From Patescibacteria group bacterium (GTDB lineage Bacteria > Patescibacteriota > Patescibacteriia > UBA2591 > JAQUPP01), in assembly GCA_041649955.1 (NCBI GenBank), contig JBAZMD010000004.1, positions 1 to 62,671 of the forward strand: a stretch of DNA of 62,671 nucleotides, in the 5' to 3' direction. Below, in pieces: positions 43,598 to 62,541 of this stretch (within the stretch, counting starts at the first letter, position 1; each line of letters opens with the position of its first letter). Made by a program: the position numbers and the translations under genes. The notes under the pieces were generated by a model. That model saw only the letters and a list, made by a program, of their open reading frames with translations. It ran no database searches and was not told the origin of the DNA.

Positions 43598-43611
43598 CAA
43601 CAATTTAGGGG

Positions 43612-43640
43612 TTGACAAAAAATGATTTTTATGCTAATAT
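43612..43640 (+). promoter_or_regulatory. near-consensus promoter of the 45-aa micro-gene
   Basis: TTGACA, 17 nt (ending in TGC, an extended -10), TAATAT. Confidence 0.65.
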
Positions 43641-43683
43641 ATAAATAATATAATAACCAGAAAAAAATAAGTAAGGGGGAAGG

Positions 43684-43821
43684 ATGTCAGCATCACAAAA
43701 TACAAACGCGCAACAAGGGTTGCGTGAAAAAAAAGTTGTTTTAACAGACGAAGTAACGGGCTATCCAGTAGCCATAAAGTATGTCGCTCCAGATGGAGTC
43801 GACGAAATAGCCATTCTTTAA
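43684..43821 (+). CDS. 45-aa protein, self-contained transcription unit
   Basis: SD aagggggaagg 3 nt before the ATG. Reads MSASQNTNAQQGLREKKVVLTDEVTGYPVAIKYVAPDGVDEIAIL. Has its own promoter and terminator. Confidence 0.5.
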   Translation: MSASQNTNAQQGLREKKVVLTDEVTGYPVAIKYVAPDGVDEIAIL

Positions 43822-43844
43822 AAAATAAAAAGGAGGAATGTTAC

Positions 43845-43875
43845 GAGGAGATACCCCATGGGTGTCTCCTCTTTT
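43845..43875 (+). terminator. terminator of the micro-gene
   Basis: gaggagatacc/ggtgtctcctc stem (one G-U), then TTTT. Confidence 0.7.
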
Positions 43876-43911
43876 ACTATTATATAAATTATCTATTCTT
43901 AAAAATGAATC

Positions 43912-44622
43912 CTAAAATTTAAAATATTTTTCCCAATATTCGTAAAGTTTTTTTGTTGCTCTTAAATCACCGACATTATATTTGGCAATATCCAAGAATT
44001 TCTTTTCTTTAAATAAAGCGCTTACATCATCGCCGGTTACTCCATTGGCCTTGGGACTTTCAATATTAAATGCGCGGCTCCAAAGATGTAAACTTCCTTT
44101 TCGCCAAACAGCGCCGTAGAAAGAAAGCTGGTCAAACAAATCTATGTGTTTAGAATCATATTTTTGGCTTCCAAGATATCGGTTAGACATTAAATCTTTT
44201 GTCGGCAGAACATTATTAATCGCCGACCTGATCATTAAAAACGGCACATCAAATCCTCGGCCGTTGAAACTGATGAATTCTTGATAATTTTTTGCACCGT
44301 TCCAAAAATTTTCCAGCATTTCTTTTTCAGTCATTGGTTTGAATTTAATGCCGTTTTCTTCTGTTTCTTTAAGATTGGCATTTGGAGCTTGAAAACAAAC
44401 CGCCCCTTTATCTTTCTCACAATCTAAAACGCCAATTGCGACAATCTCGCCGGTTAGAGGCGAAAATCCAAGTCCTTGCTTTAAATCTTGCAGGGATTTT
44501 TCATATTCGTCATTATCTTTAGAATCTTTTTTAATTGATTTACTGAGAATTTCTTGAGTCGCGGCATCCATCTCATCAAAATTTTCTCCAATTGTTTCAA
44601 TATCAAAAACTAATTTAGACAT
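43912..44622 (-). CDS. DnaQ-fold 3'-5' exonuclease (PolB-exonuclease-like)
   Basis: Exo I FDIET, Exo II SFNGRGFDVPFL, Exo III YNVGD motifs. Confidence 0.75.
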   Translation of the reverse strand: MSKLVFDIETIGENFDEMDAATQEILSKSIKKDSKDNDEYEKSLQDLKQGLGFSPLTGEIVAIGVLDCEKDKGAVCFQAPNANLKETEENGIKFKPMTEKEMLENFWNGAKNYQEFISFNGRGFDVPFLMIRSAINNVLPTKDLMSNRYLGSQKYDSKHIDLFDQLSFYGAVWRKGSLHLWSRAFNIESPKANGVTGDDVSALFKEKKFLDIAKYNVGDLRATKKLYEYWEKYFKF

Positions 44623-44692
44623 AATTTGTAAAGCTATTTAAATTAATAAATATATATACCCCGTCTCGGTCTGGGACAGAGAACTATCAATC

Positions 44693-44721
44693 AGTGTAAG
44701 GGTTTTGGGGTAATTTATCAA
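44693..44721 (-). promoter_or_regulatory. promoter of the exonuclease gene
   Basis: Minus strand reads TTGATA, 17 nt, TACACT. Confidence 0.5.
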
Positions 44722-44791
44722 GAGCCGAACTGAGGCCTCTCGGTTAGGTTTAATTTTAATGGATTCAGGGTAAATTAAAAGATTTTAGTCG

Positions 44792-44871
44792 TGTCTCATT
44801 TTTTCTGGTTTTGTTCGTAAAATGAGACAAATGCGACAGTAGAAAGGGGGCAATTCTATGTGTCTCATTTT
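44792..44871. promoter_or_regulatory. three copies of TGTCTCATTTT (two direct, one inverted): operator-like sites
   Basis: Copies at 44792-44802, 44819-44829 (inverted; forms an 11-bp hairpin with the first) and 44861-44871, just upstream of the plus-strand promoter. Confidence 0.45.
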
Positions 44872-44891
44872 TAATTGTTGTGGATAAATTA

Positions 44892-44920
44892 TTGATAAAA
44901 TAGTTTATTTCGTCTATAAT
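44892..44920 (+). promoter_or_regulatory. strong plus-strand promoter firing antisense into the 66-aa gene
   Basis: TTGATA, 17 nt, TATAAT. Confidence 0.55.
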
Positions 44921-44961
44921 GAAAACGGGGCAGAAGCGCCCCAAGACCCAATAAAATTTCC

Positions 44962-45162
44962 TTATTGATTAATTAAATCATTAAGGGATTTTATTTTATG
45001 CTCCTCGAGAAATGTCCCAAGGTGCATGTCACTACGGACATTAAGATTGATGCCGTACTTCTCCTCAATAGTACCCATGTGGGTATCATCGCGTTTGTCA
45101 CGCAATTCTCCATCTTGGTTCCGTGAACGATATCCTTTCATGCCCGATGCATCCGTAGCCAT
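44962..45162 (-). CDS. small hydrophilic protein (66 aa)
   Basis: ORF followed by the hairpin ggggcgcttctgcccc plus a T-run on the minus strand. No motif recognised. Confidence 0.5.
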   Translation of the reverse strand: MATDASGMKGYRSRNQDGELRDKRDDTHMGTIEEKYGINLNVRSDMHLGTFLEEHKIKSLNDLINQ

Positions 45163-45296
45163 ATAATTATCATTTCTTATCTCTAAAAGAGATAAGTTAA
45201 ATTAAGGAAGGCTCGACGATTCCTTTCTCACCGCTTAAACGGCTAAATCTGTAAAAGACCGTATCACGACAAAAAGTATAATCGTCAAATGATGAT

Positions 45297-45320
45297 GGGG
45301 CGTGCCCCGTTTTCATTAAA
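45297..45320 (+). terminator. plus-strand hairpin plus T-run; mirror image of the one at 44917-44942
   Basis: ggggc-gt-gcccc followed by gttttcatta. The reverse complement of the same word (taatgaaaacggggc) occurs at 44917. Confidence 0.5.
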
Positions 45321-45375
45321 ATTATATAATTAGCACTCAAGTTAGTCAAGTGCTAATAACTAAAATTAATGTAAA

Positions 45376-46461
45376 TTATTTTTTAATTAATTTCAACAAA
45401 TCCTCTTCGCTTTCATAACCCTTTAATCTGCCCGATAATATTCCCAGTCTATAATTTATCCCCTCGCTCATTAATCGCCAATTGGTATCTAAGAGTATTT
45501 TTTTAATTAACCTTTGTAACTTTATTCGGCTATCATATTCAACCCGGCCTGATTTATTATCCTGGACCGTAAAATTAATAATTACATCTCTATTTATTTC
45601 TGGTTTAGAAAAATCTAATTTAAGATAATCATTTTTTTCAAGAACCGGAACCAAGAGTTTTTGTAGCTCAACAATAGTGAGCTTTTTTATTTTTACCAAT
45701 ATTTTTTGGGTTTTTTCTTTTTCTTTAAATTCTTTTAAAAATTTAGAAACATTTTCTAAGTTAATTTTTTGTTCAAGATATTTTTGACCTTCTTCATCTG
45801 ATAAACAAAATCTCTGGCGATCTCTTTTAAGATACGGGTCAATCTTCTTTGGTTGAAGTTTTTCATCTAAATTTAAAACCTCTTTTTCTTTGTGATGACA
45901 TTTGGGGCAGTTATAGACAGTAGTGATCTTATTCTTTTCTCTTGTATTTTTATCCCTCATCTCGGTTTTACACTTAGGACATCGGGTTGGTTTTAATCTC
46001 CATTCTTCACCATTATCCCAAAAAGCCCTGCGTTTATGACACTTCGGGCATTCAAAGAAAAATAATACTCTATCTTTGCTCTCATCAAGCTCTGTGTGTA
46101 AAGTTTTATCTATCACGGTCATAATTGAACCACAAATAAAACAAGAAATACTTTCTGGTGGTGGGGTATTTTTAAATCTTTCATCTCTTCGCCGGTCACG
46201 ATCTATCCATTTATTAATAGTTTCTGATTTTTTAGCGTAGCGTTCTCCTTTAACAAAATATAGGACAGTTGGAATAAAAACTTTTACCTTAAATTCTTTT
46301 TTAATTTTATTCTTTTTAGATTCACTGTCTTTAGTTGAAATCCAATCTTTGGATATACCACGTTTTTCCCAACTCCTACATTCTTCAATTGTAGAGTGGT
46401 CGTAGAGACCACGATAATACGGTTCGTCCTTAAGGTTTGTTTCTGTTTTTGTCTCGTCCAT
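45376..46461 (-). CDS. multi-zinc-ribbon protein (361 aa)
   Basis: Four CxxC pairs: CFIC, CPKC, CPKC, CPKC. Basic linker regions; the C-terminal half is unassigned. Confidence 0.6.
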   Translation of the reverse strand: MDETKTETNLKDEPYYRGLYDHSTIEECRSWEKRGISKDWISTKDSESKKNKIKKEFKVKVFIPTVLYFVKGERYAKKSETINKWIDRDRRRDERFKNTPPPESISCFICGSIMTVIDKTLHTELDESKDRVLFFFECPKCHKRRAFWDNGEEWRLKPTRCPKCKTEMRDKNTREKNKITTVYNCPKCHHKEKEVLNLDEKLQPKKIDPYLKRDRQRFCLSDEEGQKYLEQKINLENVSKFLKEFKEKEKTQKILVKIKKLTIVELQKLLVPVLEKNDYLKLDFSKPEINRDVIINFTVQDNKSGRVEYDSRIKLQRLIKKILLDTNWRLMSEGINYRLGILSGRLKGYESEEDLLKLIKK

Positions 46462-46582
46462 AAACGTTATTTTAAATTATAGGCTTAATAAAAGCAAGAA
46501 ATTCTACTAGCCAGGGCTGTCACATTTTCCATTTTTTGACGTCTTAAATAATAAGAGGGCAAAAAAAATAACTCCTTCCGTG

Positions 46583-46611
46583 TTGACAATATTTTTCTGT
46601 TTTGCTACACT
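46583..46611 (+). promoter_or_regulatory. promoter upstream of the ParB-methylase/TerS/TerL operon
   Basis: TTGACA, 17 nt, TACACT. Confidence 0.6.
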
Positions 46612-46709
46612 TTAAAAGTACGGTACTTTAGAACAATTTAATTAATCGATCCAATTATTCTTATTCAGTTATAAAAACTGGCGGGCCACGATGCCTGGCA
46701 TAGTTAAAG

Positions 46710-46783: not shown

Positions 46784-46894
46784 AGTAAATACTCCGCTTT
46801 ATTTAGGGCAGGGTATTTTTATGTTTAAAAATAAACCACCACCTCAAAAAATTTAATAAAGAATTAAGTAACTTTTAATTTTAATTAAATTCAT

Positions 46895-48223
46895 ATGATC
46901 GATGTAACAAACAAACTTAATATCGTTTACGTTCCGATAAATTCTTTAAAGGCTGCAAATTATAATCCCAGAAAATGGGACCAAGCAGCCATTAAGAATT
47001 TAATTGAAAGCATAAAGAAATTCGGCATTGTTGATCCATTTTTAGTTAATAGCACTCCGGCCAGAAAAAATACTTTAATCGGCGGACACTTTAGATGGAA
47101 AATTGCCAAAGATTTAAAAATAGAAAGTGTACCGGTAGTATATATCAACATCCCGGATATTGAAAAAGAAAAAGAGCTGAACATTCGCTTGAATAAAAAT
47201 TTAGGCGATTGGGGTTGGGATTTGTTAGCGAATTTTGACGAAAAATTTCTGGCAGATATAGGGTTTTCATCTGAAACATTAGATCAAGTTTTTGGAATTG
47301 ATAATGACCCGGAAGTTTTCGACTTAGAGAAAGAACTAAAGAAACTTAGTATTGAAAAAGTTGAAGTTCAAAAAGGAGACATATACCAACTTGGACAGCA
47401 CCGGATGATGTGCGGAGATTCGACCATTGAATCCGACGTCTTAAAACTGATGGCCGGAGAGAAGGCGTCTCTTTGTCTGACCGACCCTCCGTATATATTA
47501 AATTATTTGAAGGGTAAGAAAAAACACGGTCAAGCCGCCACGGGATTCGGATATAAACGAGATCGGAGATATTTAGAAACAGATGAATTACCGCCCGACT
47601 TTACTGAAAAATGGATGGCAAATGTCTCCAAAGTTGCTAAACCCGATTTTTCCATTATCGTTTACGAGAATTGGAAAAACATCAGAACAATTTGGGGCGA
47701 GATGGAAAAATATTGGAAAGTTAAAAATATGTTGGTCTGGCATTTGCCGAATAGAACGCAGGGTTTTGCCGCAAAATACAAATTTTTTTCAAAGCATGAC
47801 ATCGCTATGGTCGGCGGTTCGGAAAAAATTGACTTAAACCTGAAATCCGAAACAGAATTACTGCAGAACGAATATGAAACGGCTTTGTTTGGAATTTCCG
47901 GCAAACCGCACTGGGAAGGATATGAAAAAGGAAAAAAGATTTGTCCAACAGACTTTATTGAATTTAAAGCGGATGATGCCAAACATTCTGGACAAGGAAT
48001 TATATTTGGCTGTAAACCAATAGAAATTCTTATCCCATACATTAAGGTTCTAACCGAAAGAAATGATTTAATTTTTGAACCCTATGGGGGAAGTGGAAGT
48101 CTGCTTATCAGTGCAACAAAAATGCAAAGACGTTGCAACTTAATGGAAAAAGTTCCTACGTACTGTGAAGTGATAAAGCGTCGCTGGGAAAAATTAACTG
48201 GTTTAAAAGCTAAAAAAATATGA
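46895..48223 (+). CDS. ParB-like nuclease domain fused to a DNA N6-adenine/N4-cytosine methyltransferase
   Basis: ParB-N motifs (YNPRKW, GGHFRW), then LTDPPY (motif IV) and a C-terminal EPYGGSGS (motif I). Confidence 0.8.
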   Translation: MIDVTNKLNIVYVPINSLKAANYNPRKWDQAAIKNLIESIKKFGIVDPFLVNSTPARKNTLIGGHFRWKIAKDLKIESVPVVYINIPDIEKEKELNIRLNKNLGDWGWDLLANFDEKFLADIGFSSETLDQVFGIDNDPEVFDLEKELKKLSIEKVEVQKGDIYQLGQHRMMCGDSTIESDVLKLMAGEKASLCLTDPPYILNYLKGKKKHGQAATGFGYKRDRRYLETDELPPDFTEKWMANVSKVAKPDFSIIVYENWKNIRTIWGEMEKYWKVKNMLVWHLPNRTQGFAAKYKFFSKHDIAMVGGSEKIDLNLKSETELLQNEYETALFGISGKPHWEGYEKGKKICPTDFIEFKADDAKHSGQGIIFGCKPIEILIPYIKVLTERNDLIFEPYGGSGSLLISATKMQRRCNLMEKVPTYCEVIKRRWEKLTGLKAKKI

Positions 48224-48618
48224 TCAGCGCCAAAGAAAAGAAATTATTATTGGAACATCTAAGTAAAACGCCGATCATAGAAATTGCCTGTAAACAAGCT
48301 GGCGTAAGCCGGGCAACGTATTACAGGCTGCGCAATAAAAGCGTGGATTTCAGAAAAGCGGCGGACTCAGCCATGGCAGAAGGAATTTTGCTGATTAATG
48401 ATATGAGTGAGGCCCAGGTTATTTCCTTAATCAAAGAAAAAAATTGGTCAGCTATAAGCTTCTGGTTAAAATCACATCATCATTCATACTCTGATAAGGT
48501 TGAGATCAGTAGGCGGATCACTGGCTCATTGGGAGAATTATCTCCAGAGGAAGAAAAAATTATCGCCGAAGCTATGAGACTAGCTTCAGGGGGCGCTATT
48601 AAAAAACAACGATTATGA
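48220..48618 (+). CDS. terminase small-subunit-like HTH protein
   Basis: ACKQAGVSRATYYRLRNK helix-turn-helix. ATGA coupling on both sides. Confidence 0.6.
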   Translation: MISAKEKKLLLEHLSKTPIIEIACKQAGVSRATYYRLRNKSVDFRKAADSAMAEGILLINDMSEAQVISLIKEKNWSAISFWLKSHHHSYSDKVEISRRITGSLGELSPEEEKIIAEAMRLASGGAIKKQRL

Positions 48619-49793
48619 AAATAGACGAAAAATACATCCAGAAAATCTGGGAAAATAAAAAGGTAAGACAATCCCTGGCCTTTAAGCATCCGCTTTGGTT
48701 TAGTCTCTTTTATCTCCGTCATCATTTCACTTATCCCTTGGCCCCTTTCCATTTGGAAATGTTTCACCTTATTAAGCATCAAGAATACGAGTTTATTGTT
48801 ATGATGGCTTTTCGCGGATCCGGCAAATCAACCATTATGAACATGTCCAATGTCCTCTGGTCTATTTTAGGCAAGCCGCAGAAAAAATTTGTCATTATTA
48901 TTAGTAAAACTCAGGAACAGGCTAAAAATCATTTCGCTAACATTAAGTCCGAGCTTGAAAATAATAAAGAATTAAAAGAGGATTTTGGCCCGTTTAAGGA
49001 AAGCCAAGACGCTTGGAATAGACTTTCTTTAGAGCTTGAATATCACGGCGCAAAAATTATATCGGCTACTCGAGATCAAAGTATCCGAGGATTAAGATAT
49101 AGACAGTTCAGGCCAGATCTTATTATCCTCGACGAAGCAGAAGACACCGATTTAACGGCTGATAATAATATAGACGGTAAGGCTTTCCTCCAAAAATTTC
49201 AAGACGAAATAATTCCTCTGGGCAGTAATAATACCAGAATTGTTGTTCTGGGTAATTTAATCTCCAAAGATTCTTTCATGATGCGATTGAAAGAAATAAT
49301 TGAGAAAAATAAGAATAATGGTATCTTTCGAGCTTATCCTCTTCTCGATGATAATTATGAAAATTTATGGCCGGATAAATTCTCAGATATTGAAATCATT
49401 GAGAAAATACGTGCTAAACTATCGAATCAAACATGGGCAAGAGAATATCTTTTAAGGCTCGATGGTCCGGACACACCAGATGACATTAAAGATGAACTGT
49501 CCGAACTTACAGTTGATTCGGAATTGGTAAAATTATCACATCAATATGAGAATGAATTATGTGATTCTAGGGTTCAACTCCCGTTGATAAAACAAATGAA
49601 AAAATTCAGTATCAGCGCTCCGAAAATTGAACCTGACCCCGAAATTATTATTCAGTCTGATGATCTGCGATATCCGATATATCAAAAATATTTGGAAGTG
49701 TCGAAAAAAATTAGCGATGAACTTGCCGCTTCTCTAAGAAAATTATTGGACGAGAGAAGAAAAAAATCTTCTGAGGGTTTAATCAGACATTAA
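48615..49793 (+). CDS. terminase large-subunit-like ATPase; the nuclease domain appears truncated or replaced
   Basis: PFHLEMF, Walker A FRGSGKST and Walker B LIILDEAED. Only 392 aa, with a low-complexity C-terminus. Confidence 0.65.
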   Translation: MKIDEKYIQKIWENKKVRQSLAFKHPLWFSLFYLRHHFTYPLAPFHLEMFHLIKHQEYEFIVMMAFRGSGKSTIMNMSNVLWSILGKPQKKFVIIISKTQEQAKNHFANIKSELENNKELKEDFGPFKESQDAWNRLSLELEYHGAKIISATRDQSIRGLRYRQFRPDLIILDEAEDTDLTADNNIDGKAFLQKFQDEIIPLGSNNTRIVVLGNLISKDSFMMRLKEIIEKNKNNGIFRAYPLLDDNYENLWPDKFSDIEIIEKIRAKLSNQTWAREYLLRLDGPDTPDDIKDELSELTVDSELVKLSHQYENELCDSRVQLPLIKQMKKFSISAPKIEPDPEIIIQSDDLRYPIYQKYLEVSKKISDELAASLRKLLDERRKKSSEGLIRH

Positions 49794-49809
49794 ATATTAA
49801 TAATTTACC

Positions 49810-50230: not shown

Positions 50231-51169
50231 TTATTCAACTTTTTTCAAGACCCAATCAAAAAGTCCGGAGTTTATGGCTAATTCTGCAATCTTATCAGAA
50301 AAATATAAGTTTAGATTATCAACATCATTTATATATTTTTCTAAATCTCCTTGTGGCGTATGGGCCACATAAAAAAATCTGTCATAATCAGTCATTCTGG
50401 TAAATATTTTTTTATATTTATTAAATTCAGCTACATTGGTTTGACATTTTATTTGTACCACCGCTTTCTCTTCGGTAATGGGATGGAAAATAGCTAAATC
50501 TATTAATTTTGTGGTTTTACCCACCACCCCCAATCTTTGCCATCCGCCAGCTCTAAAAATAAGGTCAATTAAGAGCTCAAAATCTTTGGGATTAAGCTTC
50601 TTAATTAACAAAATTAGCCTGTCTTTTAGCTGGCCAAAAGATTCTTCGGCCTCTTTTATTTCTTTTGACTGTTCTCCGGTAATTTTTTTAATCAAATAAT
50701 CTTTTTCATGTACAGAACAAATCGTTCCCTTAAAACCTTGGGTTTTTGAAAGTTGACCGCTAATATTTTCTAAAAATAAGGTTTTACCTTTTAAATCCTG
50801 GCAAGACCACCTGCCAATTACTTTCCTAGCCCTACTTTTATCTTTTTGAACAAATACTTTTTTGTCGGAAAAACACCAATAGAGCTTATTATTATAAAAA
50901 GTTATCCACAAAACATTTTTATCTTCTTCATAAAAATATTTAATTTGAGTAGCATGAAAAGTAACCACTTGGTTTGAGAGGCCACGTTTCTTATGATAAT
51001 AATCCTTTATCTTCTGCCATTGGCCACAAGAACAAAGAGTATTATCAGCATCATTATAACCAATTTTCAAAATGTTTTTTTCTATACATTCTTTTTCAAA
51101 TTCTCCACCACGACCTAATTTAATGAAAAGAGCTTTCTCAACTTTATTTAATTTTTCTTTTATATTCAT
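50231..51169 (-). CDS. Mrr-type (PD-(D/E)xK) restriction endonuclease domain protein with an unassigned N-terminal domain
   Basis: C-terminal FELLIDLIFRAGGW...LIDLAIF...AVVQIKCQ matches the Mrr_cat D...(E/Q)xK layout. The N-terminal 190 aa are unassigned. Confidence 0.6.
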   Translation of the reverse strand: MNIKEKLNKVEKALFIKLGRGGEFEKECIEKNILKIGYNDADNTLCSCGQWQKIKDYYHKKRGLSNQVVTFHATQIKYFYEEDKNVLWITFYNNKLYWCFSDKKVFVQKDKSRARKVIGRWSCQDLKGKTLFLENISGQLSKTQGFKGTICSVHEKDYLIKKITGEQSKEIKEAEESFGQLKDRLILLIKKLNPKDFELLIDLIFRAGGWQRLGVVGKTTKLIDLAIFHPITEEKAVVQIKCQTNVAEFNKYKKIFTRMTDYDRFFYVAHTPQGDLEKYINDVDNLNLYFSDKIAELAINSGLFDWVLKKVE

Positions 51170-51189: not shown

Positions 51190-51360
51190 TTAGAGATGGA
51201 TCAGAATTGGCGTAAATACATAAAGCCCGCCGCTAGCGATGACTTGCGTCACCCATACTCCCTTTCGAGAATATGACCGGTAAAGGTAGCTCTAACGACG
51301 AGCCTAATATCCTTTACCGGATTTTTTCTGCCATGCCCACGGAGAATCCATGAGTTTAGG
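51190..51360. ncRNA. GC-rich structured spacer (candidate sRNA, or a structured 5' leader of the Mrr-like gene)
   Basis: 10-bp stem ccggtaaagg/cctttaccgg (51277-51320) followed by TTTTTT on the plus strand. Hairpins cgctagcg and tgacttgcgtca. Distal atggat/atccat pairing. Confidence 0.35.
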
Positions 51361-51441
51361 CAAATTAAATTGTTAACTTAAATATAGCATAAAAAACTAA
51401 AAAGTGAAACTTGAGTTACCTACAAGTTATCTACTCTAATT

Positions 51442-51496: not shown

Positions 51497-51694
51497 TCAT
51501 TTTTTAAGAATAGAAGCTATTAGTGCAACCACTGATAAAATTATTAAGACAATAAAAACGTTACTTATTTTTTTCGCAATTCCATTAACAACGTGGTCGC
51601 CCACGGTCTTCCAAAAATTTTTAGTAAAAAGAATACGTATTAACCATGAAACTAGTATGACTATAATTATTGCAATTAATATTTGACTTAGCAT
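51497..51694 (-). CDS. small 2-TM membrane protein (65 aa), last gene of the orphan operon
   Basis: MLSQILIAIIIVILVSWL...VFIVLIILSVVALIASILKK. The track ORF extends to 51793 but then overlaps the 980-aa gene. Confidence 0.45.
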   Translation of the reverse strand: MLSQILIAIIIVILVSWLIRILFTKNFWKTVGDHVVNGIAKKISNVFIVLIILSVVALIASILKK

Positions 51695-51743
51695 AAATTT
51701 ATATTTAATTACGTAGTTAAAACAAGTCGCCAGAAAAAATACT

Positions 51744-54686: not shown

Positions 54687-55329
54687 ATTTTATTTTTTTT
54701 TCATCATAAAGGAACTCTGAAAAAATTTTATAAAAATTAAACACAAAAATTATACAAAAGCTTTCAAAAATACTCTCAAATGTTTCAAGGTCAAGATATT
54801 TTTCAAATTGGTCTGGGATTTGAATTTCCTCTTTGTCTAAATCTTTAACCAATTTCGATATCTCTTGTGCCGCATTATAACTTCTCTCATAATTAAGATG
54901 AACAATCTCACTAAGGAAGTTTTTTATTTTTTTATTCAGATCAAGTCTTAAGGAAATGTCTGGTCTCTCCGTATCAATGTTTTTATACCACTTTGTTAAA
55001 CTCGTTGGGTCTATAAATATATAAATTTCCCGGAGATCTGCCGCTATATGTCGAATTGTGAAAGAATCCTTTGTTTCAAATTTTGTACCAAAAAGAGTTT
55101 GTGAGTTCAATATTAAATCCATTACATTTATTGTTTTTCCATTCGAACTCGCGTTCCATAGCAATTGTAAATATAGGGATACTGCTTTGATTATTCCTTT
55201 CTTAATTGTTGTGAATAATTCAGGCCTTTTTCCAACTAGAGTAGACTCTACATCTAAAGAATACCCTCGTTGCTTTTGCAAAACAGGATCAGTAGTTTTA
55301 TTAAGATTTTCTAAAACTTCATCTTCCAT
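54664..55329 (-). CDS. hypothetical protein (221 aa), overlaps the 980-aa gene start by 23 nt
   Basis: ORF only; the overlap suggests translational coupling. Confidence 0.65.
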   Translation of the reverse strand: MEDEVLENLNKTTDPVLQKQRGYSLDVESTLVGKRPELFTTIKKGIIKAVSLYLQLLWNASSNGKTINVMDLILNSQTLFGTKFETKDSFTIRHIAADLREIYIFIDPTSLTKWYKNIDTERPDISLRLDLNKKIKNFLSEIVHLNYERSYNAAQEISKLVKDLDKEEIQIPDQFEKYLDLETFESIFESFCIIFVFNFYKIFSEFLYDEKKIKYESTCIT

Positions 55330-56500: not shown

Positions 56501-57274
56501 TCATAATTTTTTGATTCTTAAATTACTAATTTTTACATATTTTCCTTCTTTTTCAATACCAATCCATCTTCGATTAAGTTTTTTTGCAACTACAGCCGTG
56601 GTGCCACTACCTAAAAATGGATCTAACACAACATCACCTCTATTACTTGAAGCTATTATAATTCTCTTTAGCATTTCTTCAGGCTTTTGTGTTGGATGAA
56701 CGGCTCTTCCATTTTTTTCTTTAACTCTTTCTTTGCCTTGTACTAATGGTAATTGCCAAACATCTCTCATTTGTTTTAATGATCCATCCTTCTGTTTTTC
56801 GGGATTCAGTTTCTTTAAATCTTCGTAATTAAAAGTCCATTTTTTCCCTTTAACAGCCCAAACAACAAACTCAGTAGAATGGGTAAAAACTCTTCGTGTC
56901 ATATTTGGCATTGCATTTATTTTTTGCCAAGTAATTATATTATTGATTTTAAAATTAAGCTGTTTAAGAACCATTATAATTTCTGAAATATTATGATGCG
57001 TACAAGATATATATATAGAACCACCATCTTTTAAAATTTTAAAAGATACACTGATCCACTTTCTAGTAAACTGAAGATATTCGGGTGCAGACATTCTATC
57101 CCATTCTTCATTGACCATATACCAATCACCGCCAGTTTTATTTCCTTTCCAATAAAGTCCATTTCCTGAAAGATTATAGGGAGGATCAGCAAAAATAAGA
57201 TCTATAGATCCTTCTTTTATTTCTTTTTTCATTATCTCAACGCAATCTCCTTTATAAATTATATTTGTTTTCAT
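56501..57274 (-). CDS. beta-class DNA methyltransferase (N6-adenine or N4-cytosine; CcrM/HinfI-like layout)
   Basis: FADPPYNL (motif IV) precedes DPFLGSGTTAVVAKKL..W.GIE (motif I). The ATG at 57272-57274 overlaps the endonuclease stop as ATGA (the track lists a TTG five codons upstream). Confidence 0.85.
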   Translation of the reverse strand: MKTNIIYKGDCVEIMKKEIKEGSIDLIFADPPYNLSGNGLYWKGNKTGGDWYMVNEEWDRMSAPEYLQFTRKWISVSFKILKDGGSIYISCTHHNISEIIMVLKQLNFKINNIITWQKINAMPNMTRRVFTHSTEFVVWAVKGKKWTFNYEDLKKLNPEKQKDGSLKQMRDVWQLPLVQGKERVKEKNGRAVHPTQKPEEMLKRIIIASSNRGDVVLDPFLGSGTTAVVAKKLNRRWIGIEKEGKYVKISNLRIKKL

Positions 57275-59214
57275 AATTTTTGTGTCCAATCATTAATTAA
57301 TACGGGTATTTTTTTACCCCATTCGATAGCATTTTTAGAACTCGGTATTTCAGATTTAATAATTTCAAACAAACGCTTCATGTCTTGAGTAGAGAATCTT
57401 TTTTGTTTAAAGACATTAAGAATGCCCTTAATTTGTTCTATATTTAGTGGAATAATTGTCATTTCAATTATATCATCGTCAATGGAATATTGTCTGTTAT
57501 TAAAAAATGTAAGTATTGAATTAGTATCGATATTAGGGGCAATAAAAAGGCCGAATACATCTTTTTGACCATTAAATTTTGATTGTATTTTGGCAACATG
57601 TCTTAGGACAGGTTCTGATTCACTACTCCACTGATTAGCTCTCATACTCAGAGTAACTTCTGTTACTAAAACGAAATTTTCATATTCAAATACCATATCT
57701 GGCTGGTTTCCAGCAGCATGATTTATAGGTTGTAATTCATCATCAAGTTTGAAATTTCTTGCTTCATAAGGCTTATTCGTAAGGGTGTCAATCGCCAAGA
57801 ATACTCTCCATGTATTCCATTCTAGATATGCTGGATAATAAGCTTCGCCTCCCAGAATTTGTTTAGTGAGAATTAAGTCGTAAAAATTAATTATGTCATC
57901 TACTTGTTTTTCTTCTCTCTGTGAATAATAAAATTCTATCTCTTTTAATTTAAGTAAGTTTGTTTCAATACTTCTGGTCTGTTGTTTTAATCCAATAACA
58001 TCTTGAGCGGGCGCAATATCTTTTCCAACTAAAGTCAATAATTCTCTTGCTCCAACTTTATTAAACAATACTTTTTCTTTGGCTTTTATGACAGATAAAT
58101 GATTTTTGAGGTAATCCGTTTTATCACTTGGGAGGGCCGGCAAAGAATCATTCCAAAGATAGTCGAGATATTCCTTATCTCCTATTAAATTCCATTTCTG
58201 AGAAAGTAAAGATTTAATAAGATCATCTTTTTCGGTTATCGTTATAAGTTTGTCTCTACTTACAGAAAATAATCCGCTTTTTCTTAAATATCTAGCGGTT
58301 AGATCCGCATAATCTCGAAGAGTTGCTATTTTAAGAAATAAGTAATAATTAAGAAATATTTTTTTAACCTCAATCGCCCCCCTTCCAGATTTTATTGTTT
58401 GAGTTATGGCGAGTTGAGTCTTTTTTGCTTTTATGGTGTTTGATCCTTTCCCGCCTTTAGTGATATCTGCTAATAATTGTTTACTCTGATTAGAAATTAT
58501 AAAGGCAGGATTCTTTTTATATCCAGCAACGAGTTTTTTTATTAAAATTACTCTTTCACTAATTTCATCATTAAATACTTCTTCAAGACGAGCGAGTTGA
58601 ACTTTTACATAGAATTCCTTTCTTTTCACCCGACCTTCAATTTTGCTTCTTTGAATTCTATAATCTTTAATCTGTTGAATCATTTTATCAACATCACTCA
58701 TTCTCACAGTGGTATTTAAAAATATACTTATTTCCTCTTTCGACAGTCCCTGCAATTCATAGGTTGTTTTTAAGCTAATAATAAAAGGCAACACGGAAAC
58801 ATTCTTAAATGATGCACCATTTTGTTTCGGTAGGGTACATGGTTTTTGGTATTTTAATAATTGTCGTAAGAAGACCTCATCTTCTATTTCGGGGTTATTT
58901 ATAAGAGATTCGCCAGCTTTAGTTATGATCACTGGTTTTTCTGAAGATTCATAAGCAAAACAAAACCCTAACTGATTTAACACTGATACCCATTTTCTTG
59001 CGTGCTCCTGTTTTCTAGCACTGGTCATACTCCTATAGTCACTTTCATCTATTTCGTAAACCTTATGTTCACGAAATAAGTTAAATAATTTTTCTTGCTG
59101 GGACGTATTCCATTCTTGACTATTAAAATAATTTTTTAATATTTGTAATCCTTCCCGTAATCTATTGGGATTGCGGACTGTAGTTGAGCCAATTGTCCAT
59201 TGAAAATATTTCAT
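57271..59214 (-). CDS. AlwI / N.BstNBI-family type IIS restriction endonuclease (or nickase)
   Basis: DDELQPINHAAGNQPDM...V(L)VTEVT...SESEPV..H catalytic-region block as I recall it from N.BstNBI/PleI/MlyI-type enzymes. The 647-aa size fits. Confidence 0.75.
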   Translation of the reverse strand: MKYFQWTIGSTTVRNPNRLREGLQILKNYFNSQEWNTSQQEKLFNLFREHKVYEIDESDYRSMTSARKQEHARKWVSVLNQLGFCFAYESSEKPVIITKAGESLINNPEIEDEVFLRQLLKYQKPCTLPKQNGASFKNVSVLPFIISLKTTYELQGLSKEEISIFLNTTVRMSDVDKMIQQIKDYRIQRSKIEGRVKRKEFYVKVQLARLEEVFNDEISERVILIKKLVAGYKKNPAFIISNQSKQLLADITKGGKGSNTIKAKKTQLAITQTIKSGRGAIEVKKIFLNYYLFLKIATLRDYADLTARYLRKSGLFSVSRDKLITITEKDDLIKSLLSQKWNLIGDKEYLDYLWNDSLPALPSDKTDYLKNHLSVIKAKEKVLFNKVGARELLTLVGKDIAPAQDVIGLKQQTRSIETNLLKLKEIEFYYSQREEKQVDDIINFYDLILTKQILGGEAYYPAYLEWNTWRVFLAIDTLTNKPYEARNFKLDDELQPINHAAGNQPDMVFEYENFVLVTEVTLSMRANQWSSESEPVLRHVAKIQSKFNGQKDVFGLFIAPNIDTNSILTFFNNRQYSIDDDIIEMTIIPLNIEQIKGILNVFKQKRFSTQDMKRLFEIIKSEIPSSKNAIEWGKKIPVLINDWTQKL

Positions 59215-59218
59215 ATTT

Positions 59219-60910
59219 TTATTTTGTTACTTTGCAATAAAATACTCTTTCGGTATGACCCTGAGTATCGCTTTTACCAGTAGTGAATCCTTTATAATCT
59301 CTCTCAAAAACCTCAACTTCACCTCGTTCTCTTAAAATCTCCATGATTCTTTTGTCTGATATTTTAGCATTTGATCTTTCATTTTTCTTTTCCCCAGTAT
59401 TATTATAAGAGAGTAATATATGATTTGTTTGAACGTTCTTAATTAGGTCATGTAATATTTGATCCGCTCCTTTAAGGCAATACCTGCTTTTTAAGTGATT
59501 CCGTTCTATCATTTTCTTGGCGACGCCCTCAACTTTTGGTTTTTTCCAAGTAATTACATTTTCAAGTAGGTGATAGGCGTCTCCATACTGTCTGGAATTA
59601 TATGGTGGGTCAATATAAATAACATCGCATTTTATTTCTTTTACCAATTGATTAGCATCTTTTTGGTATATTTCATTGTTAATATTATTTTTAGGATTAA
59701 TATCTGGCACTAAAAGTTTTATATTTTGTAAAGTATCGAGCTTCTTTCTGTAAGCTTCGTAATGACCAACGGTGTTCGCTACTTTGTCTATCGCATAAAT
59801 CAAAGAAGTGAGTAAAACATTCTTTTCCTCCTGATTAATTTTTTTTGTTTTATCAAGTTTTTCAATTTTTTCTCTGATTGCCCCGATTTTTAAAGCATTT
59901 TCTTCGGTAAAATATGATCCACCAAAAATTTTAGACATGTAGTTTTCTTTTTTTGGATTTAGATCATTTAAATAATCAATAATGGCTGTTATTTTTTCTT
60001 TATTATAATTCTTTGTTTTCAACCAGCAGTGGAGAGAGATATAACTGCTATCTAAAATATCATTAGAAATAATTTTAGTGTCCGGCTGATTGAAATATCG
60101 TCCAACAACACCTGTTCCAGCAAAGATATCACAAAAAGTATAATAACCACGACATTTGTCTGCGACGATATCTCCTATAAAACCTAATAATTTTGTCTTA
60201 TTGCCCAAGAAACGCCTATTATGTATCTGGAGGAGTTGCTCAGTTTTTTGATTTTGAGGAAACATAAATAATGGAAGCTGAGCAGGTTTTGGTAATGGAT
60301 CAAAACGGCTTCGGAATACACCAGTGACCTTGCCCCTAATTTGTACATCTTTTACAAGGATTGGTTTATAAGATTGATTAGCTGGTTGTAACCTAAACTG
60401 ATTCTTTTCTTTATAAATTCTCTTTAGCGTTGCCTCATTGTCATTGACAATAGCAACACCAATTTCACCGTTGTCTACTATGGGTTGTTCTCGGACGATT
60501 ACTGTGTCGCTATCAAAAATACCATCATCTTGCATGCTATCTCCTCGAACTTTTAGGGCGTAGTGTCGGCCTTGTCCAAGTGTCAATTCTTTTGGTATTG
60601 AGATTGTTTCCGGAATTTCTATTGCTTCTATTGGTTCGCCGGCTGCTATTATCCCAAGCAGGGGAATTTCTATAAAATTATAGTTTTTTTTTGGTTCAGA
60701 ATTAATTTCAATAGCTCTGGCCAAATTATCAAATTTTTTTATATACCCTTTATTAATTAGGGCGTTGATATGCTGATGAACAGTAGACACAGCAGATAGC
60801 TTGAGTCTTTTTTTTATTTCCTCAAGAGTAGGCGAATAACCCTTTTCATTAATAAATTTTTTGATGAAATCCAAGGCCTCTTTTTGTCTTTTTGTTATTG
60901 GAATAGGCAT
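59219..60910 (-). CDS. LexA (winged HTH + S24 self-cleaving domain) fused to an alpha-class (D12/Dam-like) N6-adenine DNA methyltransferase
   Basis: LexA N-domain GYSPTLEEI..VSTVHQHINALINKGYI; cleavage site AAGEP; GDSM serine and TLKR lysine. Then FLGNKTKLL, FAGTG (motif I) and YIDPPYNS (motif IV). Confidence 0.8.
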   Translation of the reverse strand: MPIPITKRQKEALDFIKKFINEKGYSPTLEEIKKRLKLSAVSTVHQHINALINKGYIKKFDNLARAIEINSEPKKNYNFIEIPLLGIIAAGEPIEAIEIPETISIPKELTLGQGRHYALKVRGDSMQDDGIFDSDTVIVREQPIVDNGEIGVAIVNDNEATLKRIYKEKNQFRLQPANQSYKPILVKDVQIRGKVTGVFRSRFDPLPKPAQLPLFMFPQNQKTEQLLQIHNRRFLGNKTKLLGFIGDIVADKCRGYYTFCDIFAGTGVVGRYFNQPDTKIISNDILDSSYISLHCWLKTKNYNKEKITAIIDYLNDLNPKKENYMSKIFGGSYFTEENALKIGAIREKIEKLDKTKKINQEEKNVLLTSLIYAIDKVANTVGHYEAYRKKLDTLQNIKLLVPDINPKNNINNEIYQKDANQLVKEIKCDVIYIDPPYNSRQYGDAYHLLENVITWKKPKVEGVAKKMIERNHLKSRYCLKGADQILHDLIKNVQTNHILLSYNNTGEKKNERSNAKISDKRIMEILRERGEVEVFERDYKGFTTGKSDTQGHTERVFYCKVTK

Positions 60911-61085
60911 GAATAATTGTTGATGTTTTAACTATAATTACTTATGATACTATTATACCGAAAATCTTACGAAAATGGAAGTATCAGCTTGTGGATTACT
61001 ATAAGTTATCAACTCACCCCATCTGGACTCCCTTGAGCCGTGCGTCATCAATGTTTCATAGAGATTAATTAATAATTTTAAATCT

Positions 61086-62402
61086 ATGGAACAAACAACA
61101 AAAATAAGGGTTGGACAACTGACTCAAGCACCGGCAGTAGTAATCAAGTATTGTCTCTATGCTCGCAAGTCGACCGAGCAAGATGATATGCAGGCACTTT
61201 CCATTGATTCACAGATTAAAGAGATGACAGAGATCGCCCAGCGGGATAATTTGCAAGTGGTAGAGATTAAGCGCGAATCCCATTCGTCCAAAGCAGTGGG
61301 CCAAAGGCCAGTCTTTAATCAGATGATTAGTGAACTCAAAGAGGGTAAATTCAATGCCATTCTAACATGGGCCCCTGATCGGTTAAGTAGAAACGCTGGA
61401 GACTTAGGATCCTTAGTTGATTTAATGGATCAGGGAGTACTAATAGAAATTAAAACTTATAGTCAGAAATTCACCAACAACCCAAATGAGAAGTTTTTGC
61501 TGATGATTTTAGGCAGTAATGCTAAATTAGAAAACGACAATAAATCAGTTAATGTTAAGCGAGGACTTAAGGCTAAGTGCGAGATGGGTTGGAAACCATC
61601 TATTCCACCCACGGGCTATTTAATGGAAAATCATATTGATAAACGAGGCCAAATTAGATTGGACCCTAAAAGATCGGTTATTATAAAACAGGTGTTTGAA
61701 AAAATTGTTTACGAAAACTGGAGTGGCAGAAAAACATATCATTGGCTATTAGAGATTGGTTTCAAAACTAAAAATGGTAAACGTCTATCGTTGGGTAACG
61801 TCTATATTCTACTTCGAAATACTTTCTATTATGGCGAGTTTGAGTTTCCGGCCAATAGCGGCCATTGGTATCAAGGTAAACACATGCCAATTATTACCAA
61901 AGAAATATTTGATAAAGTTCAAGAAGCCTTAGACCAGAATTATGTACCCAAAACAGAGAGCAAAGAATTCGCTTTTACTAAACTCATTAAATGTGGCTAT
62001 TGCGGATCGGGTATTACCGCTGACGAAAAATTTAAGAAATTAAAAGATGGCGGAGTCAATCGCCATGTTTATTATCGGTGTACCAAGGTTAAGAATATCG
62101 ATTGCAAAAATCAAGCTATTAACGAGCAAGATCTAATCAAAGAATTAATTGAAATGATCGATAAAATTAATCTTGATGAATTGGGTATTAAAACAAAAAT
62201 TGAAGATGAAATGATCAGATACAATAAATTTCAAATGGGCGTCTTGGGGACAATCAATAAGATTAAAATGAATACCGAAATCAACACTAGGAATTATGCC
62301 AAATACATTCTCAAAGAGGGATCACTGATTGAAAAGAGAGAATTACTGTCTTGTCTACAAAGTAAATTAATATTAAAAGACAAAAAGATTTGTGTAGAAT
62401 AA
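61086..62402 (+). CDS. large serine recombinase
   Basis: YARKSTEQDD catalytic-serine motif, DRLSRN, recombinase domain, and the zinc ribbon CGYCG...YYRCTK. Confidence 0.85.
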   Translation: MEQTTKIRVGQLTQAPAVVIKYCLYARKSTEQDDMQALSIDSQIKEMTEIAQRDNLQVVEIKRESHSSKAVGQRPVFNQMISELKEGKFNAILTWAPDRLSRNAGDLGSLVDLMDQGVLIEIKTYSQKFTNNPNEKFLLMILGSNAKLENDNKSVNVKRGLKAKCEMGWKPSIPPTGYLMENHIDKRGQIRLDPKRSVIIKQVFEKIVYENWSGRKTYHWLLEIGFKTKNGKRLSLGNVYILLRNTFYYGEFEFPANSGHWYQGKHMPIITKEIFDKVQEALDQNYVPKTESKEFAFTKLIKCGYCGSGITADEKFKKLKDGGVNRHVYYRCTKVKNIDCKNQAINEQDLIKELIEMIDKINLDELGIKTKIEDEMIRYNKFQMGVLGTINKIKMNTEINTRNYAKYILKEGSLIEKRELLSCLQSKLILKDKKICVE

Positions 62403-62410
62403 CTAGAAAC

Positions 62411-62445
62411 AAAAAATCACCAAGGAAGCTTGGTGATTTTTTGTT
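62411..62445 (+). terminator. recombinase gene terminator
   Basis: atcaccaag-gaag-cttggtgat, then TTTTT. Confidence 0.8.
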
Positions 62446-62541
62446 TATCTTGAATCAAGAGACAAGGTTCGAGTCCTAGAGAGGTACGATTTTTCAATGC
62501 TTTAAACGCTATGCCTCACGGTCTCTTGACTTGTCACTAGC

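What the first reader, a model, noticed from the sequence alone, without database searches (positions are those of the whole stretch)
43600..62450. Roughly 19-kb island with a packaging module but no virion genes, ending in a serine recombinase at tRNA-Lys: satellite-like element or decayed prophage acting as a defence island
**Seen in sequence.**
- Core genes (ftsH, dnaN, hup) end at 43.6 kb.
- After that come a PolB-exo-like exonuclease, a multi-zinc-ribbon protein, and a ParB-methylase/TerS-like/TerL-like operon coupled by ATGA overlaps.
- Then follow an Mrr-like nuclease, the orphan operon, the LexA-fused type IIS R-M system and a large serine recombinase, followed by tRNA sequences.
- No portal, capsid, tail or lysis genes are present.

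**Established knowledge.** Phage satellites (the PICI type) keep an integrase, regulators and terminase-small-type genes to hijack helper packaging, and they often carry defence cargo.

**Inference.** This may be a CPR phage satellite or a prophage remnant domesticated as a defence island. The LexA-type repressor next to the recombinase suggests SOS-inducible mobility.
Basis: partly seen in the sequence, partly recalled or inferred. Interest (0 to 1): 0.6.

Follow-up and report, generated by a model that had tools for sequence, protein, structure and literature searches.

The report
Capsid-less terminase island in CPR bacterium
This is a 17.9-kb mobile DNA island, still present in only part of its bacterial population, that carries a phage DNA-packaging module, an integration enzyme and several anti-phage systems but no virus-shell genes, so it may spread by borrowing another phage's capsids.

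Summary
The gene list is real, but the borders needed correcting. The island runs from 44,657/44,663 to 62,544/62,550 (17,888 bp). The PolB-type exonuclease is a core gene outside it.

**Mobility.** A same-genus genome has the exact empty site. In the probable source metagenome, island unitigs have about 0.65 of the flank depth, and one contig joins 44656 to 62545. The contig continues into core genes, so no virion genes lie just outside.

**Family.** The scan already noted this family in at least 111 other genomes. It has a ParB-methylase, TerS, TerL and a large serine recombinase, variable cargo and no capsid genes. I found at least 543 relatives in species-representative genomes, mostly named as CPR. 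I found no paper describing it.

**Particular to this copy:**
- The TerL belongs to a clade of 18 that lost the nuclease domain but keeps a conserved tail motif.
- LOOT RNA sits just upstream of the Mrr-like gene.
- Cargo is a Dsr1-like protein, an AlwI-type R-M system with a LexA-methylase fusion, and the Mrr-like nuclease.
- The same MAG holds a circular 35-kb phage whose portal, capsid and tail families match those of phages that carry island-type terminases.

It is not a decayed prophage. Capsid hijacking is inferred only (about 0.3).

The parts
44657..44662 (.). Left junction core TACCCC (attL crossover lies within these 6 nt); island DNA begins here or up to 6 nt further on
   Evidence: Empty site in G001 and junction alignment; position by script; joint 44656->62545 with 6 ambiguous letters
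45376..46461 (-). 361-aa multi-zinc-ribbon protein; recurrent accessory gene of the family, function unknown
   Evidence: No Pfam hit above cut-off. Its cluster is in 27 of 165 loci, usually at the far left of the methylase operon. AF2 pLDDT 84, no Foldseek PDB match at E<=0.001
46895..48223 (+). ParB_N-domain + N6/N4 DNA methyltransferase, first gene of the packaging operon
   Evidence: Pfam; phrog_498 3e-76; 65-68% aa identity in four relatives' islands; cluster in 137 of 165 loci
48220..48618 (+). TerS-like HTH protein (132 aa), ATGA-coupled to both neighbours
   Evidence: phrog_4044/4102 terminase small subunit, 1.5e-5 and 9.4e-5; cluster in 131 of 165 loci; overlaps read
48615..49793 (+). 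TerL with ATPase domain only (392 aa). The nuclease domain is replaced by an acidic tail with the conserved motif LIxQMxxFxISAP
   Evidence: phrog_38 7.4e-36 over residues 8-281; PDB profile hits T7 maturase B 7e-6 and a large terminase 1.4e-4; no nuclease remnant downstream; clade of 18 nuclease-less TerLs; tail motif
50231..51169 (-). Mrr-type nuclease (312 aa), cargo gene placed directly behind LOOT
   Evidence: Mrr_cat 6e-5; PADLOC PDC-S02 5e-8; 90% nt identity copy elsewhere in G002
51238..51362 (-). LOOT RNA (RF03000), 69 nt upstream of the Mrr-like gene on the same strand
   Evidence: 84.5 bits against gathering score 46.4. Own model finds it in 15 of 85 and 28 of 80 sources, never in the phage loci. 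32 of 43 hits lie <=100 nt upstream of a same-strand ORF
51497..55329 (-). Cargo operon: 221-aa, 980-aa (Dsr1-like C-terminal region) and 98-aa membrane ORF
   Evidence: PADLOC Dsr1 7.8e-26 over residues 476-968; no Pfam; 75% aa identity copy on G002 contig C10
55444..56423 (-). 243-aa membrane protein and 67-aa ORF, unknown
   Evidence: No Pfam, PHROG or PADLOC hit
56501..60910 (-). Type IIS-like R-M operon: LexA(HTH+S24)-D12 methylase fusion, AlwI-family endonuclease, N6/N4 methylase
   Evidence: Pfam RE_AlwI 3e-74, N6_N4_Mtase 7.8e-64, LexA_DNA_bind 1.4e-17 + Peptidase_S24 9.6e-29 + MethyltransfD12 1.5e-32; PADLOC MTase_II/REase_II
61086..62402 (+). Large serine recombinase (438 aa), the integrase
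   Evidence: Resolvase+Recombinase+Zn_ribbon_recom; phrog_95 integrase 3.3e-65; 82% aa identity to a recombinase beside tRNA-Lys(UUU) in another family's genome
62514..62550 (.). Right end: 31-nt conserved arm (probable recombinase-binding half-site) plus junction core TACCCC (62545-62550)
   Evidence: 26 of 31 nt identical to the G031 element, while the 110 nt before it share no more than 9-nt words
62545..62671 (-). Target, outside the island: tRNA-Lys-like remnant (62545-62620) and the 3' 45 nt of tRNA-Lys(CUU) (62627-62671) cut by the contig end
   Evidence: The remnant is also present at the empty site of G001, so it is not a scar of this insertion

Best explanation
The block 44,657/44,663-62,544/62,550 is one copy of a family of integrative islands found mostly in genomes named as CPR/Patescibacteria.

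**Shown.**
- A large serine recombinase sits at one end.
- The island is inserted exactly at the 3' end of a tRNA-Lys-like sequence, with only a 6-nt shared core, as expected for a serine recombinase.
- It is absent from both sister genomes and from about a third of the cells or strains in the sample it probably came from.
- Its conserved core is ParB-methylase, TerS, TerL and the recombinase.
- The space between TerL and the recombinase holds swappable cargo.

**Inferred from homology.** The cargo is anti-phage: an Mrr/PDC-S02 nuclease behind a LOOT RNA leader, a Dsr1-like protein with partners, and an AlwI-type R-M system whose first gene fuses a LexA-type repressor to a methylase.

**Inferred, about 0.3.**
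- The island travels between cells in capsids of a helper phage.
- Its TerS would recognise island DNA, and its TerL ATPase would dock on the helper's portal.
- This clade's TerL has no nuclease domain, so DNA cutting would have to come from the helper's terminase or from an island nuclease.
- A circular 35-kb phage in the same MAG is a candidate helper. Its virion gene families are those that natively pair with island-type terminases.
For: **Borders and mobility.**
- G001 has hup, the exonuclease and then directly the tRNA-like sequence.
- G002 has a different 2.4-kb insert (TrmB plus radical SAM) at the same point.
- In run X1, two flank unitigs have depth 220.4 and 189.5. Six island unitigs have 123-141, all with 0 mismatches.
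- One contig joins 44656 to 62545 at depth 62.1, with 6 shared letters.
- No TerL of this family was found in G001 or G002 with this query.

**Target.** A recombinase 82% identical sits beside a true tRNA-Lys(UUU) in G031, with 26 of 31 arm nucleotides conserved.

**Family.**
- Clusters over 165 loci: TerL 163, methylase 137, TerS 131, recombinase 100. Nothing else exceeds 30.
- The portal cluster occurs only in the 11 phage loci.
- Portal-linked phage TerLs form one clade (SH-like 100), one change against 146 island TerLs.

**Nuclease-less clade.**

**Helper candidate.**
- Contig C7 is circular.
- It carries portal phrog_2662, protease phrog_80/11321, capsid phrog_10 and tail phrog_290.
- Phage L077 has these same families next to an island-type methylase, TerS and phrog_38 TerL.
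- Portal and capsid are 24-30% identical between the two.

**Cargo.**
Against: **Against capsid transfer.**
- No circular or 'goes back' joint across the island ends is among the joints shown (29 more were not shown; the data are contigs, not raw reads).
- Island depth is below flank depth, not above it, so there is no sign of induction or replication.
- No replication gene was found on the island.
- No terminal repeat was found in any of the 159 fetched loci L018-L176.
- This TerL cannot cut DNA by itself.
- C7 has its own TerL of a different family (phrog_2). Its link to this host rests on binning only.
- Island and C7 share no DNA beyond 17-18-nt words.
- The closest recombinase relative sits in an island with metal/redox cargo and no terminase, so recombinase and packaging module are separable.

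**Weaknesses in the mobility evidence.**
- The empty-site joint has only 24 letters on its shorter side and was called at 90% likeness. The tool warns that such joints can be spurious.
- Run X1 is probably the sample the contig was assembled from.
Confidence: 0.55

Rival explanations
1. The island is mobile, but its ParB-methylase/TerS/TerL module does not package the island. An ATPase-only TerL with its TerS would act as a decoy that blocks or misdirects the terminase or portal of an infecting phage. That would make it one more defence function. The island would then move by other routes, such as transformation or transduction by any phage.
For: This clade's TerL has lost the nuclease domain yet keeps Walker motifs and a conserved tail motif across 17 aligned members. 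All other cargo looks defensive. No replication gene or circular form was seen. Recombinase ends occur without the module.
Against: 134 of 171 TerL-cluster proteins keep a nuclease domain, so the family as a whole encodes a complete terminase. The three-gene order copies the start of a phage morphogenesis operon (L077). A decoy would not obviously need a TerS and a ParB-methylase kept in 131-137 of 165 loci.
Confidence: 0.3
2. A decayed prophage: what remains after deletion of the virion genes, kept only because of its defence genes.
For: The module is phage-derived. This TerL is truncated compared with the relatives. The window copy has no stand-alone repressor.
Against: The same core and order recur in well over a hundred loci mostly named as CPR lineages. 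Island TerLs are separated from portal-linked phage TerLs by one change. The truncated TerL form is a clade of 18 with a conserved tail, not a one-off break. The island is cleanly present or absent at base resolution.
Confidence: 0.05
3. The apparent island is an assembly or binning artefact that joins DNA of different organisms.
For: The contig ends in a repeat (tRNA-like copies). The MAG also holds a phage contig.
Against: Unitigs of the source run cover flank and island without mismatch and with consistent depths. Both junction sequences are in the contig itself and fit the empty site of an independent genome to the base. The order on the far side is confirmed in G002.
Confidence: 0.02

Closest known systems
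Capsid-less terminase islands of CPR bacteria
   Same: ParB-methylase, TerS and TerL operon, large serine recombinase, insertion beside a tRNA gene, LOOT RNA, swappable defence cargo, no virion or replication genes.
   Different: This copy has a TerL without nuclease domain. It has no stand-alone S24 repressor; a LexA-methylase fusion stands instead. Its cargo is unusually large (about 10 kb). There is direct evidence that it is polymorphic in its population.
Phage-inducible chromosomal islands (PICI/SaPI)
   Same: Integrated at a fixed site, carry an integrase, a small-terminase-type gene and accessory or defence genes, lack tail genes, and depend on a helper for particles (features recalled from the literature).
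   Different: Here the integrase is a serine, not tyrosine, recombinase. A TerL gene is also present. No primase/replicase, no capsid-size genes and no Stl-type repressor were found. Helper dependence is untested.
Capsid-forming PICIs (cfPICI)
   Same: Satellites that bring their own TerS and TerL (recalled; an earlier scan note says the same).
   Different: cfPICIs also encode portal, capsid and head-tail connector proteins. None is present here.
PLE of Vibrio cholerae
   Same: A satellite or anti-phage island that integrates with a large serine recombinase (start of the abstract of PMC6002521, seen in the listing).
   Different: PLE excision is triggered by a helper protein and PLE replicates (the replication is recalled). 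No such factors can be identified here, and PLE is not reported to carry a terminase (recalled).
NitKor-E1 of Nitrosopumilus koreensis (Krupovic et al. 2019, PMC6563490)
   Same: An integrated element whose only Caudovirales-like genes are TerS and TerL, together with an integrase and a restriction endonuclease (passage read).
   Different: It is archaeal, a single case, has a tyrosine integrase, and was read by its authors as a likely relic. Here there is a large conserved bacterial family.

Membership tests
CPR capsid-less terminase island (scan-defined) | ParB-methylase, TerS, TerL in this order on one strand | tested here: met
   46895-49793, ATGA-coupled; the same order in the relatives
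CPR capsid-less terminase island (scan-defined) | Large serine recombinase at one end, insertion beside a tRNA gene | tested here: met
   61086-62402; junction at the 3' end of a tRNA-Lys-like sequence next to tRNA-Lys(CUU)
CPR capsid-less terminase island (scan-defined) | No virion genes between the borders | tested here: met
   Pfam on all island ORFs of 60 aa or more, PHROGs on 10 of them: no portal, capsid, tail or lysis family; both flanks are core genes
PICI / SaPI | Replication module (primase/helicase and origin) | tested here: not met
   No replication family in Pfam or PHROGs for any island ORF searched
PICI / SaPI | Excision, replication and packaging induced by a helper phage | not testable with these tools
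   Only contigs of public runs were available. No circular joint among those shown
PICI / SaPI | Tyrosine integrase with master repressor beside it (feature recalled) | tested here: not met
   The integrase is a serine recombinase. The only repressor-like domain is fused to a methylase
cfPICI | Own capsid, portal and connector genes | tested here: not met
   None found
Prophage (intact or defective Caudoviricetes) | Virion morphogenesis genes next to the terminase | tested here: not met
   TerL is followed by an Mrr-type gene on the other strand. In real phages of the related TerL clade a portal follows
Large terminase subunit | ATPase domain with Walker A and B | tested here: met
   phrog_38 7.4e-36; PDB profile hits to terminases; the GSGKST and LIILDEAED stretches align with the relatives
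Large terminase subunit | C-terminal RNase-H-like nuclease domain | tested here: not met
   No Terminase_6C hit in the window protein, against 3.2e-7 in L016. The alignment ends at REYLL. No remnant downstream
LOOT RNA (RF03000) | Score above Rfam's gathering threshold over the full model | tested here: met
   84.5 bits against 46.4, model positions 1-121 of 121
Dsr1 (defence-associated sirtuin) | N-terminal SIR2 domain (feature recalled) | tested here: not met
   Only the C-terminal region matches the PADLOC Dsr1 profile (residues 476-968 to profile 750-1213). No Pfam domain at all in the 980-aa protein

The most novel reading that the evidence does not exclude
A whole clade of these islands has given up the cutting half of its terminase. 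It keeps only a TerS and a TerL motor with a short conserved docking motif. These would be satellites that bring their own packaging specificity and motor, rely on the helper phage (or on an island nuclease placed behind the LOOT RNA) for DNA cleavage, and plug into portals of the phrog_2662 type, such as that of the circular phage found in the same MAG. LOOT, an orphan RNA, would then be the leader that switches on the island's variable effector gene during helper infection.
Probability: 0.2. Interest if true: 0.8.

Novelty: new variant of a known kind. Interest (0 to 1): 0.6.

Why it matters
CPR/Patescibacteria are a very large and almost uncultured part of bacterial diversity. How they exchange genes and carry their defence systems is poorly known.

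- **A shared vehicle for defence genes.** A family of small islands present in hundreds of species could be a main route for spreading defence genes in these reduced genomes. Each island carries a phage packaging module, a serine integrase and interchangeable anti-phage cargo.
- **A possible new satellite design.** If the islands ride in helper capsids, they would be satellites that bring both terminase subunits but no shell. A paper from 2019 stated that the terminase complex had not been identified in non-viral elements (PMC6563490, passage read).
- **What this copy adds:**
  - base-exact borders
  - an empty-site allele in the same sample
  - a candidate helper phage in the same bin
  - a nuclease-less terminase clade
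  - a genomic home for the orphan LOOT RNA

Tried and rejected
**Analyses that gave nothing useful.**
- Dyad-symmetry scan of the two island ends joined at the core: best 13 of 25 positions, so no clear symmetry.
- Search for the left-end arm in the other loci: 0 matches outside the window's own copy, and 0 in L017 with up to 3 mismatches.
- Operator search between the LexA-methylase and recombinase genes: only short AT-rich repeats.
- Zinc-ribbon protein: AF2 model with pLDDT 84. Foldseek against PDB found nothing at E<=0.001, only a weak eS24-like C-terminal match at 0.012. Function stays unknown.
- Terminal repeats in L018-L176: none.
- Shared DNA between island and phage contig C7: an 18-nt and a 17-nt exact word (E 0.008 and 0.032), taken as chance. 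No island protein hits C7 at E<=0.01.

**Reads and runs.**
- Joints other than 44656->62545 have 20-25 letters on the shorter side and no independent prediction (for example 44840->61887). I did not use them.
- Runs X3-X5 hold 7-12% of the sampled words. X3 and X4 gave only pieces of 151-297 nt. I draw nothing on habitat from them.

**Literature.**
- Searches found no paper on a terminase-plus-serine-recombinase island in CPR bacteria.
- LOOT is not described in the main text of PMC5737381 (the word matched only an author's name). Supplements are closed and may hold it.
- From 10.1101/2024.03.08.584096 I read passages only; they concern other phages.

**Restriction sites.** The recognition words used (GGATC, GAGTC, GATC) are recalled for AlwI-family and Dam-type enzymes. 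The specificity of this system is unknown, and expectations were zero-order only.

**Rows left out or counted twice.**
- The tree used the first 300 residues of all 171 TerL-cluster proteins of 270 aa or more.
- 14 distant phage rows served as outgroup and were not counted in the changes.
- L015 and L163 are the same contig fetched twice, as are L014 and L157.

Full report
**1. What is in the window**

The window is a whole contig (C4) of a 925-kb, 44-contig genome with about 35% G+C.

- Core genes: ftsH, dnaN and HU.
- A PolB-exo2 exonuclease.
- A 361-aa zinc-ribbon protein.
- A ParB_N plus N6/N4 methylase.
- A 132-aa TerS-like protein.
- A 392-aa TerL-like protein.
- An Mrr_cat protein.
- Three genes without Pfam families.
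- An N6/N4 methylase, an AlwI-family endonuclease and a LexA-S24-D12-methylase fusion.
- A large serine recombinase.

The two ATGA overlaps are real. Rfam adds a LOOT RNA at 51238-51362(-), scoring 84.5 bits against a gathering score of 46.4.

ARAGORN finds no tRNA in the window. Only the 3' 45 nt of a tRNA-Lys(CUU) are present, cut by the contig end, next to a tRNA-like remnant.

**2. What lies beyond the contig end**

- The last 127 nt of C4 equal the first 127 nt of contig C31.
- C31 carries tRNA-Lys(CUU), tRNA-Arg, a T2SSE ATPase, EF-P, SSB and S6.
- The same-genus genome G002 has exactly this order after its exonuclease gene.

So there are no virion genes just outside the window.

**3. 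Borders**

- In the near-complete same-genus genome G001, hup and the exonuclease (97% aa identity) are followed directly by the tRNA-like sequence and tRNA-Lys.
- Aligning that empty site with the two window junctions leaves only TACCCC shared, at 44657-44662 and 62545-62550. The island is therefore 17,888 bp.
- The exonuclease is a core gene. The tRNA-like remnant predates the insertion.
- G002 has an unrelated 2.4 kb at the same point, encoding a TrmB regulator and a radical-SAM protein. The site is a hot spot.

**4. Polymorphism in the sample**

Public run X1 (landfill metagenome, probably the source) holds 99% of the sampled words. I laid its contigs on 43000-62671.
- Two flank unitigs have depth 220.4 and 189.5.
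- Six island unitigs have depth 123-141, all without mismatch.
- One contig joins 44656 to 62545 ('skips 17888') at depth 62.1, with 6 letters fitting both sides.
- 62 plus about 135 equals the flank depth.

This is the junction predicted from G001. About a third of the population therefore lacks the island.

Caveats:
- The joint has 24 letters on its shorter side and was called at 90% likeness.
- The data are contigs, not reads.
- X1 is not independent of the assembly.
- A co-existing strain and true excision cannot be told apart.
- No circular joint is among those shown.

**5. The family**

- A DNA search of 40 relatives showed the methylase, TerL, LOOT and recombinase pieces lying together in four genomes of other families. 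tblastn confirmed methylase, TerS, TerL and recombinase in the same order there.
- A TerL alignment (A1) found 202 confirmed relatives among 352 IMG/VR candidates.
The best 80 are mostly named as CPR lineages; about a third are filed as Gammaproteobacteria, Bdellovibrionales, Pseudomonadales or Bacteriovorax, labels I suspect are wrong but did not check.
- I clustered the ORFs of 165 sources (the window part plus L013-L176). The clusters were TerL in 163 loci, methylase in 137, TerS in 131, recombinase in 100, an S24 repressor in 30 and the zinc-ribbon protein in 27. Nothing else exceeded 19.
- The portal cluster occurs only in 11 loci that are real phages. One of them, L077, has replication genes, methylase phrog_498, TerS, full TerL phrog_38, portal phrog_2662, protease, capsid phrog_10 and tail phrog_290.
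- On a FastTree of the ATPase part, these 11 phage TerLs form one clade (SH-like 100). That is one change against the 146 island TerLs.

This pattern does not fit many independent prophage decays. The loci were picked by similarity to island TerLs and are cut by flanks and contig ends, so the counts are lower bounds and the sample is biased.

The scan has noted this family before, in 117 findings from at least 111 genomes. Earlier follow-ups reached the same reading. A later check priced the satellite reading at 28 in 100.

**6. The TerL of this copy**

- It aligns with its relatives only up to REYLL (residue about 282). Relatives in L014-L016 go on with a nuclease domain (Terminase_6C 3.2e-7 in L016).
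- No nuclease remnant lies downstream.
- Of 171 TerL-cluster proteins, 134 hit the L016 nuclease part. Of the other 37, 13 are distant phage TerLs, 3 are cut by contig ends and 21 (the window's TerL included) are short forms in islands.
- The window's TerL sits in a starred clade of 18 rows, all nuclease-less (SH-like 95). The trait needs 3 changes on the whole tree.
- Their tails are variable and acidic but share the motif LIxQMxxFxISAP (I333 invariant, P336 nearly so, among 17 sequences). This may be a remnant of the first nuclease strand (GxDLAIS in full-length forms).
- A related element in a groundwater run carries 1,836 other letters in place of 1,388 nt of this gene.

**7. LOOT**

- A covariance model built from five copies finds LOOT in 15 of 85 and 28 of 80 sources. 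All hits are in island-type loci.
- In 32 of 43 hits it lies 100 nt or less upstream of a same-strand ORF. It is usually next to the recombinase gene.
- The downstream genes vary: Mrr here, SNase, tRNA_anti-like OB fold, DUF4352 and zinc-ribbon proteins elsewhere.
- It therefore looks like a leader, or a promoter-proximal RNA, of the island's variable effector slot.

**8. Cargo and repressor**

- PADLOC matches the 980-aa protein to the C-terminal region of Dsr1 (7.8e-26) and the Mrr-like protein to PDC-S02.
- Close copies of both lie elsewhere in G002, so cargo is exchanged between islands.
- The LexA part of the fusion is 27-42% identical to the family's stand-alone S24 repressors. It is 51% identical to another LexA-methylase fusion.
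- It is the only strong S24 match in this genome, and G001 has none.

**9. Integration site**

- The recombinase's closest relative (82% aa identity) lies in G031, a genome of another family, beside a true tRNA-Lys(UUU). That island has metal/redox cargo and no terminase.
- The 31 nt before the junction are 26 of 31 identical. The 110 nt before them share nothing beyond 9-nt words.

**10. A candidate helper**

- Contig C7 of the same MAG has identical 127-nt ends, so it is a circular molecule of about 35.2 kb.
- It encodes TerL (phrog_2 type), portal phrog_2662, protease, capsid phrog_10 and tail phrog_290.
- These are the same virion families as in L077-type phages, whose terminase is of the island type.
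- C7 is poor in GATC (observed/expected 0.29, against 0.63 in the host and 1.14 in the island, zero-order model).
- Its host is inferred from binning only.

**11. Verdict**

| Claim | Status |
|---|---|
| A real, recently mobile member of the capsid-less terminase islands | High confidence |
| Not a decayed prophage | High confidence |
| Defence cargo | Inferred from homology |
| Transfer in helper capsids | Most economical reading of the conserved TerS/TerL; unproven, and complicated here by the missing nuclease (about 0.3) |
| A decoy or interference role | About 0.3 |

I found no paper describing the family. The nearest in print that I read is NitKor-E1 (PMC6563490).

Noticed in passing
G000 contig C7 (L177, L178): Circular 35.2-kb phage genome binned with this MAG (its first 127 nt equal its last 127 nt). 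It has TerL, portal, protease, capsid and tail genes and a Mom-like modification gene. GATC is strongly under-represented (observed/expected 0.29).
   Followed up: partly
window 62545-62620; L001 (C31) 1-76 and 209-251; L002 (C23) near 3424-3931: Several tRNA-Lys-like fragments surround the tRNA-Lys genes. They contain a 16-nt palindrome (TCCGCCAGCTGGCGGA) that recurs exactly on 11 other contigs of the genome. In G001 the remnant carries an extra 45-nt double hairpin.
   Followed up: partly
L012 (G002:C1) 3537-5910: At the same intergenic point, the sister genome G002 has an unrelated 2.4-kb insert with a TrmB-family regulator and a radical-SAM protein. The site is a hot spot for insertions.
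   Followed up: partly
G001:C1:242146-245276: A LOOT-like stretch (85% identical to window 51207-51395) lies about 2 kb from a different large serine recombinase (28% identity), in a genome where no TerL of this family was found. LOOT may belong to serine-recombinase islands more widely.
   Followed up: no
L017 (G031:C2:48000-60000): A recombinase 82% identical, with the same conserved end arm, sits at a true tRNA-Lys(UUU). Its island carries DUF5320, a MinD/ParA-type Fe-S ATPase, a glutaredoxin/DsbD protein and a cation-efflux pump, and no terminase.
   Followed up: partly
L030, L031, L033, L035, L038, L051: Some islands carry two full-length TerL genes in tandem (about 520 aa each).
   Followed up: no
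window 59219-60910; G002:C18:9185-9526: The island's LexA-methylase fusion is the only strong LexA/S24 match in this genome. G001 has none. In G002 the S24 domain lies in an 897-aa open frame. This genus may have no chromosomal LexA.
   Followed up: partly
window 47702-50221 (run X2, record 12): A groundwater contig matches the end of the methylase/TerS region and the region after TerL, but has 1,836 other letters in place of 1,388 nt of the TerL gene. This may be a relative with a different, longer TerL.
   Followed up: no
window 11000-18000: A block of markedly lower G+C (0.24-0.29, against about 0.33-0.36 around it), with seven same-strand ORFs of 254-570 aa. Not examined.
   Followed up: no
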